Shown piece by piece: positions 33,445-34,249 of a stretch of DNA of 64,000 nt (the first letter of the stretch is position 1; each line of letters starts with the position of its first letter). The position numbers were made by a program. The DNA is taken from assembly GCA_000165345.1 (NCBI GenBank), contig CM000433.1:1016901-1080900 (forward strand). The letters are read 5' to 3'.

Positions 33445-34249
33445 TATTTTTTGTAAAAAATTATAATAAAATTATTTTATGATCTTATCTTTAAATTCTT
33501 GAAATATCGATTCATGCAATTTAAGATATAAAATAAATATATATAGATAGATTTTGCATGCCGACAAGACTGAATCAATTAATTAATTAATTAATTATAT
33601 CACTTTTATCTAGCTTAAGATCATACTAATATAAATCAGTATTACATAATTTAATTTATTATTTATTAAAAGAAAGAAAGAAAAAAAAATGTTTTCTTTT
33701 TTTTTTTTTTTGATTGAATAATAAGTTACTGGAAGAATATATTTGAAAAGAATTTAGTTGATGGCTATATATAATAATCAAAAATAAAAACATCCCGTTA
33801 TTGTTATTACAACTCATTAATAATTTTTATAATTTCCTTTTAATAATTAATAGTATTCAACATTTAAAATGGTGAATTAAAAATTTGATTAAATTTTAAA
33901 ACAAAAATATTTCATGAGTGAGTAACAACAACTTAATATTAACAATATGTTTTTTTTTAAATAATATTTGAAATAAATAATAATTAATGTGTATGCAATA
34001 TAATAATTGATATATATATATATATATATATATCAAATATATTATTAATATGTATATATATACTTGCAAATTATATATATATTCAATATATTAATATTTA
34101 TTTCAAATATTTTTAAAAGATCAGAATGAATGAATGAGAATAAAAAAAAAAAAAGAAGAAATAACAATATTATCAATAAAGTAATAATAATGAAATAATG
34201 ATAATAGTAATAGTAATATTAATATTAAAAGCAATGTTTATTAAAGAAT

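What the first reader, a model, noticed from the sequence alone, without database searches (positions are those of the whole stretch)
33549..33680. A GC-rich 19-mer CATGCCGACAAGACTGAAT plus a downstream AT-rich block is repeated at two intergenic sites 5.6 kb apart
CATGCCGACAAGACTGAAT occurs at 33549-33567 and again at 39153-39171, in the same orientation. About 50-70 nt downstream, each copy is followed by AATATAAATCA[GA][TA]ATTACATAATTTAATT. An exact 19-mer with about 58 percent GC inside more than 85 percent AT DNA is very unlikely by chance. Candidates are a dispersed small ncRNA gene, a shared enhancer or insulator, or a relic of a small mobile or duplicated element flanking the asnA-containing segment.
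Basis: seen in the sequence. Interest (0 to 1): 0.5.

Follow-up and report, generated by a model that had tools for sequence, protein, structure and literature searches.

The report
Decayed non-coding duplicate in Cryptosporidium subtelomere
The repeated 19-mer and its AT-rich partner are real: they are the best-preserved cores of an old local duplication of about 0.4-0.5 kb of non-coding DNA either side of the asnA gene in a Cryptosporidium parvum chromosome end, they match no known RNA gene or mobile element, and whether they do anything is unproven.

Summary
CATGCCGACAAGACTGAAT lies at 33557-33575 and 39151-39169, not 33549 and 39153. It is 47% GC, not 58%. The AT block follows 52 and 54 nt later. 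Neither motif is expected by chance.

The window is a C. parvum subtelomere: GMP synthase, AsnA, TrpB, a MEDLE-like family and a (TTTAGG)n telomere.

The two sites are not isolated motifs. Five colinear blocks define paralogous segments, 33294-33753 and 38932-39309. This indicates an old local duplication. Both copies are present in every C. parvum and C. hominis assembly I could reach, and on at least two chromosomes of one C. parvum assembly, because the whole subtelomeric block is known to be duplicated.

Tests for a known kind were negative:
- no Rfam or tRNA match, and no significant or shared fold;
- no canonical C box, no terminal stem and no rRNA target, so not a box C/D snoRNA;
- no open frame and no terminal inverted repeats.

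Evidence for selection is only suggestive. All 9 G/C sites of the 19-mer are kept, against 13 of 24 in the other blocks. C. parvum-C. hominis divergence across the element is close to background.

Most likely this is a decayed duplicate. A bipartite promoter or enhancer, or an unstructured ncRNA pair, remains possible. Interest is low.

The parts
33557..33575 (+). 19-mer core, copy A (CATGCCGACAAGACTGAAT). It sits inside block c, 33543-33578.
   Evidence: Exact match with 0 expected by chance. Identical in 3 C. parvum assemblies and in C. hominis.
39151..39169 (+). 19-mer core, copy B. It sits inside block c, 39137-39172.
   Evidence: Exact match. C. hominis has CTGATT here, one change at position 18, in 3 assemblies.
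33627..33660 (+). AT block (block d), copy A: TAATATAAATCAGTATTACATAATTTAATTTATT. It contains a TATA-like TATAAAT.
   Evidence: 31 of 34 identical to copy B, 29 bits against a null maximum of about 20.
39223..39256 (+). AT block (block d), copy B: TAATATAAATCAAAATTACATAATTTAATTGATT.
33294..33313 (+). Block a, copy A: AAAAGATCTCGAAAAATAAT.
   Evidence: 18 of 20 identical to 38932-38951 and colinear with the cores.
38932..38951 (+). Block a, copy B: AAAAGATCTTGAAAATTAAT.
33481..33510 (+). Block b, copy A. It starts with TGATCT, which is not a canonical C box.
   Evidence: Aligned to 39087-39116; about 70% identical.
39087..39116 (+). Block b, copy B. It starts with TGATCT.
33714..33753 (+). Block e, copy A: TTGAATAATAAGTTACTGGAAGAATATATTTGAAAAGAAT.
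   Evidence: 30 of 40 identical to 39270-39309 and colinear with the cores.
39270..39309 (+). Block e, copy B.
33294..33753 (+). Whole paralogous segment A. It lies between the 272-aa secreted-protein gene (31766-32584, - strand) and asnA (36033-37043, - strand).
   Evidence: Chain of blocks a-e with offsets of 5556-5638 nt. Gene context.
38932..39309 (+). Whole paralogous segment B. It lies between the 141-aa secreted repeat-protein gene (37975-38400, + strand) and trpB (41924-43141, + strand).
   Evidence: Gene context.

Best explanation
The two sites are paralogous remains of one old local duplication of about 0.4-0.5 kb of non-coding DNA inside the C. parvum/C. hominis subtelomeric block (rRNA cluster, GMP synthase, AsnA, TrpB, MEDLE, telomere).

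After the duplication, the low-complexity AT-rich stretches between the blocks turned over quickly through slippage, microsatellite growth and indels. The sequence-complex stretches changed only by point substitution. What still aligns today is five colinear blocks. The G/C-containing 19-mer and the AT block with TATAAAT are the best-preserved of these.

Shown: the repeat is real, and it is colinear. It predates the C. parvum-C. hominis split. It is not any known RNA family, snoRNA, ORF or transposon. Inferred: the cores need no function to have survived. Weak purifying selection on the 19-mer is possible but not demonstrated. I put origin by duplication at about 0.85 and 'no sequence-specific function' at about 0.45. 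The confidence below is for the combined statement.
For: Five colinear blocks share offsets of 5556-5638 nt. Two of them, besides the two cores, fall in a band where about 0.07 noise matches are expected (my estimate from the counts).

The spacers are microsatellite-like, for example (TTAA)n in A. The C. parvum-C. hominis differences in and around the element are dominated by (AT)n, A-run and T-run indels.

Point divergence inside the five blocks is about 17% (my count). At that rate an unbroken 19-nt run is expected about 0.7 times, so the run alone does not need selection. The permutation p for run length is 0.07.

C. parvum-C. hominis substitution across blocks a-e is about 4.7% in both copies, close to the intergenic background of about 4.5-5%.

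All tests for a specific functional class were negative: Rfam, tRNA, folding z-scores from +1.4 to -1.7, consensus structure of 0 pairs on the + strand and -4.4 kcal/mol with invariant pairs on the - strand, at least 3 stop codons in every frame in both copies, and no terminal inverted repeats.

The element's orientation relative to the neighbouring gene starts differs between A and B. That argues against a conventional promoter-proximal role for the annotated genes.
Against: All 9 G/C positions of the 19-mer are kept in both paralogues, although this DNA is 86-87% AT. Only 13 of 24 G/C positions are kept in the other blocks (my count), giving p of about 0.004 before correcting for choosing the window after seeing the data. 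Identical G/C columns cluster in the 19-mer, with 0 of 20000 permutations reaching the observed value.

The spacing between the two cores is kept at 52 and 54 nt while the spacer sequence is not.

The 300 nt around copy B (39120-39419) has 1.7% C. parvum-C. hominis substitutions against about 4.5% for that intergenic region, Poisson p of about 0.008.

Both copies lie in unusually long gene-free stretches of 3.4 and 3.5 kb in a compact genome. That leaves room for unannotated transcripts.
Confidence: 0.45

Rival explanations
1. The cores form a bipartite cis-regulatory DNA module kept in both paralogues. The 19-mer would be a sequence-specific factor site (it contains GCCGAC and CATGC). About 52-54 nt downstream lies a TATA-like box (TATAAAT) plus about 20 conserved nt. 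Together they would act as a promoter for unannotated non-coding transcripts running into the gene-free AT-rich stretch, or as an orientation-independent enhancer or boundary in the subtelomere.
For: Conservation takes the form of short discrete primary-sequence blocks at a fixed spacing, with no RNA structure. TATAAAT is conserved in both copies. G/C conservation clusters in the 19-mer. GATC-containing motifs are enriched in both segments, 4 against 0.4 expected and 3 against 0.34, and two of them lie in the homologous blocks a and b (noticed after the fact). The region around copy B is among the best conserved of its intergenic region.
Against: There are no expression or binding data. No other gene upstream region in the window carries either motif. 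The ApiAP2 paper I searched does not contain the strings CCGAC, GCCGA or GTCGG, although its motifs are mostly shown in figures. TATA-like strings are cheap in DNA that is 87% AT. Interspecies conservation of copy A is at background level.
Confidence: 0.25
2. The segments are two paralogous copies of a small or intermediate non-coding RNA gene with little stable structure. The 19-mer would be a functional single-stranded segment, such as a protein-binding or antisense site.
For: Li et al. 2022 (PMC9465071) report that, apart from tRNAs, only two novel intergenic ncRNAs (Cp_snc_8 and Cp_snc_116) have two covariance-model hits in the C. parvum genome. In that assembly this block is present once, at the end of chromosome 1 (PMC8744675). 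A local pair such as A and B is therefore the kind of thing that would give two hits. This is a lead only: their coordinate table is not held. G/C islands in AT-rich DNA are typical of RNA genes.
Against: No Rfam hit even at E up to 10. Folding z-scores are not significant on either strand. RNAalifold finds 0 pairs on the + strand, and on the - strand a -4.4 kcal/mol structure with essentially no covariation. Microsatellite indels lie between blocks b and c in C. hominis. No antisense target for the 19-mer exists in the window.
Confidence: 0.18
3. The 19-mer is the guide plus D box (CATGCCGACAAGA + CUGA) of a box C/D snoRNA, present in two copies.
For: CUGA directly follows a 13-nt G/C-containing stretch in both copies. 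A UGAUCU lies 83-95 nt upstream in both.
Against: There is no canonical RUGAUGA. UGAUCU replaces the G6-A7 positions that pair with the D box, as I recall the k-turn. I see no terminal stem between the 5' and 3' flanks in either copy (reading). The guide has no target in the C. parvum LSU, 5.8S or 3' half of the SSU rRNA: the best duplex is 8 Watson-Crick plus 2 G-U pairs with 1 mismatch, equalled or beaten by 144 of 200 shuffled guides. No snoRNA family matches in Rfam. Copy B has a T13 run and C. hominis copy A has a 32-nt (AT)n insertion inside the would-be snoRNA.
Confidence: 0.03
4. The segments are copies of a small mobile element, such as a MITE, or they encode a micro-ORF.
For: The two copies are in the same orientation and flank a horizontally acquired gene.
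Against: No terminal inverted repeats: the best matches are T-runs. There are only two copies per subtelomeric block. The 17-mer occurs in bacterial genomes at chance frequency, 62 hits against about 69 expected. Every reading frame has at least 3 stop codons in both copies, and the small overlapping ORFs are in different frames relative to the DNA alignment.
Confidence: 0.03

Closest known systems
Duplicated subtelomeric block of C. parvum chromosomes 1, 7 and 8 (Baptista et al. 2022, PMC8744675; T2T assembly, PMC12179316)
   Same: The element lies inside this block. The gene content matches (GMP synthase, aspartate-ammonia ligase, TrpB, MEDLE, then the telomere). I found both copies on two chromosomes of one assembly, CP141124.1 and CP141118.1.
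   Different: Those papers describe duplication of whole chromosome ends. The A/B pair is an older, much smaller duplication inside the block. It is shared with C. hominis, and I did not find it mentioned in the passages of those papers that I read.
Box C/D snoRNA genes in AT-rich genomes
   Same: A G/C-containing stretch immediately 5' of CUGA stands out from AT-rich DNA and is the best-conserved part.
   Different: No canonical C box, no terminal stem, no rRNA target and no Rfam hit.
Subtelomeric bipartite SPE2 motif arrays bound by the ApiAP2 factor PfSIP2 in Plasmodium falciparum (recalled from memory, not tested)
   Same: A non-coding, sequence-specific, bipartite motif confined to subtelomeres of an apicomplexan.
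   Different: SPE2 occurs in arrays of many copies at every chromosome end and has a known binding protein. Here there are two copies per block, no sequence resemblance to SPE2, and no binding data.
Novel intergenic is-ncRNAs of C. parvum with two genomic hits (Cp_snc_8 and Cp_snc_116; Li et al. 2022, PMC9465071)
   Same: Intergenic, specific to Cryptosporidium, with two copies in a genome where almost all ncRNAs are single-copy.
   Different: The candidates in that paper passed an RNAz structure filter or had high expression, whereas I find no conserved structure here.

Membership tests
Box C/D snoRNA | D box CUGA near the 3' end, directly after the guide | tested here: met
   CUGA at 33571-33574 and 39165-39168. 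A 4-mer on its own carries little weight.
Box C/D snoRNA | Canonical C box RUGAUGA about 60-130 nt upstream | tested here: not met
   Only UGAUCU, at 33481 and 39087. No RUGAUGA is shared by both copies.
Box C/D snoRNA | Terminal stem pairing the 5' flank of box C with the 3' flank of box D | tested here: not met
   By eye, the flanks (A: AAAAUUAUUUU / AUCAAUUAAUU; B: AAAUUUAAUUG / AUAAAGAGUGA) offer no 4-6 bp stem. MFE folds do not pair the ends.
Box C/D snoRNA | Guide complementarity of 10 nt or more to rRNA or snRNA | tested here: not met
   Tested against the C. parvum LSU, 5.8S and SSU model positions 901-1831 taken from L183. The best duplex is 8 Watson-Crick plus 2 G-U pairs with 1 mismatch, and 144 of 200 shuffles do as well. 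The 5' half of the SSU and the snRNAs were not available.
Any Rfam family (release 15) | Covariance-model score at the gathering threshold, or at least E of 10 or less | tested here: not met
   0 hits at the gathering threshold in the whole window. At E up to 10 in 33000-40000, the only hits are elsewhere: SNORD37-like inside asnA and PYLIS_1 inside the 141-aa gene.
tRNA or tRNA-derived element | Cloverleaf detected by ARAGORN | tested here: not met
   0 genes in the window.
Structured ncRNA (generic) | Folding energy below shuffles, and a consensus structure with covariation | tested here: not met
   z-scores range from +1.44 to -1.70. The + strand gives 0 consensus pairs. The - strand gives -4.4 kcal/mol with 1 pair changed on both sides. 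Only two independent paralogues exist, so the power is low.
Transposable element or MITE | Terminal inverted repeats, target-site duplication, many dispersed copies | tested here: not met
   No terminal inverted repeats. Two copies per block and none elsewhere in 64 kb plus about 10 kb more. Whole-genome copy number was not testable.
Protein-coding micro-ORF | An open frame shared by both copies | tested here: not met
   At least 3 stop codons in all six frames over the segment holding both cores, in both copies. The small ORFs differ in frame.
Paralogous segmental duplication (non-coding relic) | Several colinear blocks in the same orientation with similarity above the composition-matched background | tested here: met
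   Blocks a-e at offsets of 5556-5638 nt. The cores score 43.3 and 29.0 bits against a null maximum of 16-20.
Pol II core promoter with upstream element | TATA-like box, a transcription start 25-35 nt downstream, and an upstream factor site | tested here: inconclusive
   TATAAAT is conserved in both copies. The transcription start and factor binding cannot be tested with these tools.

The most novel reading that the evidence does not exclude
The two cores are under purifying selection as a subtelomere-specific functional module, in one of two forms. One is a bipartite promoter that drives a pair of unannotated non-coding transcripts from the long gene-free AT-rich stretches either side of asnA. 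The other is the constrained part of a two-copy ncRNA, possibly one of the two 'two-hit' intergenic ncRNAs of Li et al. 2022. Either would link the horizontally acquired metabolic genes (GMP synthase, AsnA, TrpB) and the secreted-protein genes of the duplicated chromosome ends to a shared regulatory element.
Probability: 0.35. Interest if true: 0.4.

Novelty: new member of a known kind. Interest (0 to 1): 0.18.

Why it matters
If it is only a duplication relic, it matters little. It adds a small internal paralogy to a chromosome end that is already known to be duplicated and fast-evolving.

If the cores are functional, they would be one of very few candidate cis-elements or ncRNAs specific to the Cryptosporidium subtelomeric block. 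That block carries TrpB, AsnA, GMP synthase and the MEDLE invasion-related genes, and almost nothing is known about transcriptional control in this parasite.

The practical value of this check is that it removes the attractive snoRNA and ncRNA readings, and it gives exact coordinates in four public assemblies where existing RNA-seq can settle the matter.

Tried and rejected
- **Box C/D snoRNA.** Rejected. I obtained the C. parvum rRNA cluster by walking from a window protein. The putative guide has no target, there is no canonical C box and no terminal stem.
- **Resemblance to 18S rRNA.** From memory, I noticed that the 19-mer matches 12 of 13 nt of the sense strand of 18S rRNA (ATGCCGACTAGA). 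Against the real sequence, the antisense pairing of the minus strand is no better than that of 100 of 200 shuffles. I treat it as coincidence.
- **Bacterial origin of the 19-mer, as a footprint of horizontal transfer.** Rejected. The 17-mer has 62 hits in 596 Gb of bacterial and archaeal genomes against about 69 expected, spread over unrelated taxa. The 103 metagenome hits do not carry the AT block.
- **Coding potential.** Two substitutions in the AT block are synonymous in one minus-strand frame, and a short M-x-N-L-x-I motif follows the ATG of the minus-strand 19-mer. However, stop codons interrupt every frame and the frames differ between copies.
- **Hairpin in the AT block with two compensatory changes (minus strand).** With only two sites in AT-rich DNA, I estimate the chance probability at about 0.2. 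This is not evidence.
- **Deeper comparative genomics.**
  - The AsnA relative at 81% identity (L005, 3.7 kb) and the relative of the 272-aa gene at 60% identity (L171, 1.9 kb) have too little flank and show nothing above noise.
  - The GMP synthase search returned mostly bacterial relatives and no usable Cryptosporidium locus.
- **Self-BLAST with permissive settings.** Useless in DNA that is 87% AT. I replaced it with composition-weighted scoring after masking simple repeats.
- **Literature.**
  - Neither strand of the core 13-mer appears in a relevant paper.
  - The supplementary tables of the two papers that could hold the ncRNA annotation are not held.

Full report
**What the window is.** The ORF at 36033-37043 (- strand) is an aspartate-ammonia ligase (Pfam AsnA, E = 8e-77). 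It is 99% identical to the protein annotated in Cryptosporidium hominis and C. parvum. This is cgd5_4540, and the ORF starts MEVKKQSQ, matching the cloning primer in PMC12174568.

Its neighbours are:
- a GMP synthase at 29701-31755 (+ strand);
- a 272-aa signal-peptide protein at 31766-32584 (- strand);
- a 141-aa secreted repeat protein at 37975-38400 (+ strand);
- a PALP-family enzyme (Pfam), taken to be TrpB, at 41924-43141 (+ strand);
- a paralogous gene family at 52-59 kb;
- (TTTAGG)n from 62244 to the end of the window.

This is the subtelomeric block that Baptista et al. 2022 (PMC8744675) describe as duplicated among the ends of chromosomes 1, 7 and 8. The window itself looks like the older IOWA II chromosome 5 scaffold. 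A 100-N gap at 27413-27512 separates a VPS13-like gene from the block, and similarity to the chromosome 1 copy (99.96%) starts exactly at 27513.

**The observation.** The 19-mer occurs twice, at 33557-33575 and 39151-39169, both on the + strand, with 0 expected by chance. The AT block occurs at 33628-33656 and 39224-39252, also with 0 expected. The 19-mer is 47% GC, not 58%. The gap between the two motifs is 52 and 54 nt. Outside one gene's tandem repeats, the 19-mer is the most informative dispersed exact repeat in the first 52 kb.

**Anatomy.** In DNA that is 87% AT, ordinary alignment is uninformative. I therefore masked simple repeats and scored diagonals with composition-aware log-odds. 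Two matches stand far above the shuffled maximum of 16-20 bits. One is 33543-33572 against 39137-39166 (43.3 bits). The other is 33627-33660 against 39223-39256 (29.0 bits).

Three weaker blocks fall on the same diagonal band, with offsets of 5556-5638 nt:
- AAAAGATCT[C/T]GAAAA at 33294 and 38932;
- a TGATCT-led block at 33481 and 39087;
- TTGAATAAT...AAAAGAAT at 33714 and 39270.

From the counts I estimate about 0.07 noise matches in that band, so the extension is real. The two sites are therefore paralogous segments of about 460 and 380 nt, in the same orientation. A possible further remnant links 33021-33045 to the signal-peptide coding part of the 141-aa gene (21.6 bits). This is uncertain. 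If real, the original unit would have included a secreted-protein gene.

**Distribution.** Both copies are present and unchanged in three C. parvum assemblies, and on two different chromosomes of GCA_035232765.1, namely CP141124.1 and CP141118.1. Both are also present in C. hominis, where copy B reads CTGATT in three assemblies. The duplication therefore predates the C. parvum-C. hominis split. No further copy, even with 4 mismatches, exists in the window or in the roughly 10 kb between GMP synthase and the rRNA cluster. More distant species could not be examined, because the only contigs I could reach have too little flank and show nothing above noise.

**Tests for a known kind.**
- Rfam gives nothing at the gathering threshold in the window, and nothing at E up to 10 on the elements. 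ARAGORN finds no tRNA.
- Single-sequence folds of either strand are no better than shuffles, with z from +1.4 to -1.7.
- RNAalifold on the four sequences gives no pairs on the + strand. On the - strand it gives a -4.4 kcal/mol structure made of invariant pairs.
- The most tempting reading was a box C/D snoRNA, with the 19-mer as guide plus CUGA. To test it, I walked from the 262-aa protein of the window to the rRNA cluster of the chromosome 1 copy. Rfam located the LSU, the 5.8S and the 3' half of the SSU there. The 13-nt guide has no target: its best duplex is matched by 144 of 200 shuffled guides.
- There is also no RUGAUGA, only UGAUCU, and no terminal stem. A T13 run in copy B, or an (AT)n insertion in C. 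hominis copy A, lies inside the would-be RNA.
- All six frames carry at least 3 stop codons in both copies, and there are no terminal inverted repeats.
- The 17-mer occurs in bacterial genomes at the chance rate. It is not a footprint of the horizontal transfers that brought AsnA, TrpB or GMP synthase.

**Is there selection?** This is the key question, and the answer is 'suggestive only'.

For selection:
- All 9 G/C positions of the 19-mer survive in both paralogues, although the surrounding DNA is 86-87% AT.
- Identical G/C columns cluster in the 19-mer, with 0 of 20000 permutations reaching the observed value.
- By my count, 13 of 24 G/C positions survive in the other blocks. That gives p of about 0.004 before allowing for the fact that I chose the window after looking at the data.
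- The spacing between the cores is kept.

Against selection:
- Point divergence inside the alignable blocks is about 17%. At that rate an unbroken 19-nt run is expected about 0.7 times. The permutation p for run length alone is 0.07.
- Interspecies divergence over blocks a-e is about 4.7% in both copies, which equals the background.
- Most of the apparent saturation between the blocks is microsatellite turnover, which spares sequence-complex stretches without any selection.
- The element faces a gene start on its left at A and on its right at B, so it is not a conventional promoter-proximal element of the annotated genes.

**Verdict.** The best-supported account is a decayed local duplication whose complex cores have outlived their slippage-prone surroundings. 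I put origin by duplication at about 0.85 and absence of function at about 0.45.

Two functional readings remain open:
- a bipartite cis-regulatory module, with an upstream site plus a conserved TATAAAT, perhaps driving unannotated non-coding transcripts in the 3.4-3.5 kb gene-free stretches (0.25);
- an unstructured two-copy ncRNA (0.18).

For the ncRNA reading there is an untested lead.

The finding is real but ordinary unless expression data say otherwise. The coordinates given under next steps make that check quick.

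Noticed in passing
window 62244-64000: (TTTAGG)n telomere repeats, with 107 overlapping TTTAGGTTTAGG seeds. G-run variants such as GGGTTTAGG and GGGGTTTAGG are interspersed. The window therefore runs into a chromosome end.
   Followed up: partly
window 27413-27512 and 44901-45900: Two scaffold gaps, of 100 N and 1000 N, plus scattered single Ns (1225 in all, for example around 35545-35994). Similarity to the chromosome 1 subtelomeric copy (L183), at 99.96%, starts exactly after the first gap. The join between the VPS13-like gene (17716-27148, - strand) and the subtelomeric block therefore rests on a gap. 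This agrees with Baptista et al. 2022, who say the block was placed on chromosome 5 in the old reference without HAPPY-map linkage to chromosome 5.
   Followed up: partly
window 37756-38620 (gene at 37975-38400, + strand): A 141-aa secreted protein with three near-identical 102-nt tandem repeats (101-nt exact repeat at 38156 and 38258). The C. hominis alignment lacks this segment of about 865 nt, so the gene is a C. parvum-versus-C. hominis presence/absence difference.
   Followed up: partly
window 31766-32887: The 272-aa signal-peptide gene is only about 80% identical in DNA to C. hominis. It is 56% identical to the annotated C. hominis protein. The first 300 nt upstream of its ATG differ at 27-44% of aligned sites. 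Neighbouring DNA differs by about 3-6%. This is a hypervariable subtelomeric gene.
   Followed up: no
window 29701-31755: The GMP synthase is 61-63% identical over its full length to Treponema and other spirochaete enzymes. The best 120 hits listed are nearly all bacterial or unnamed, and only two carry a Cryptosporidium name (C. xiaoi and C. bovis). This suggests bacterial ancestry by horizontal transfer. I did not check whether this is already published.
   Followed up: no
window 34214-34386 / 34834-35006, and 39987-40033 / 40912-40982: Each gene-free stretch downstream of the element carries an (AAT)n tract followed by an (ATT)n tract. At A these form a 173-nt inverted repeat that is 87% complementary. 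The same order in both stretches may mean the old duplication was longer than the alignable 0.4-0.5 kb.
   Followed up: no
window 32900-32990 (- strand) and 37720-37765 (+ strand): G-rich motifs such as GGTGGGAAAAAAA and GGGGGGTGTGAGAAAAAAA lie 200-400 nt upstream of the start codons of the 272-aa and 141-aa secreted-protein genes. They resemble the G-box upstream motif reported for C. parvum, which I recall from memory and did not test.
   Followed up: no
window 52000-59400: A tandem family of paralogous genes with long exact repeats of up to 133 nt, for example at 52568 and 56863. Their position next to TrpB matches the MEDLE cluster described in the literature.
   Followed up: no
window 28347-29622 vs L183 11778-13087: The 262-aa gene (28548-29336, - strand) has a paralogue at 83% DNA identity next to it in the chromosome 1 copy (the 302-aa gene). 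That paralogue is missing from the window, probably in the 100-N gap. The 262-aa and 376-aa proteins are weakly similar (E = 1.5e-4).
   Followed up: no
window 47545-47740: A minisatellite of TTATG and TTGTG pentamers, with exact self-matches of up to 82 nt.
   Followed up: no
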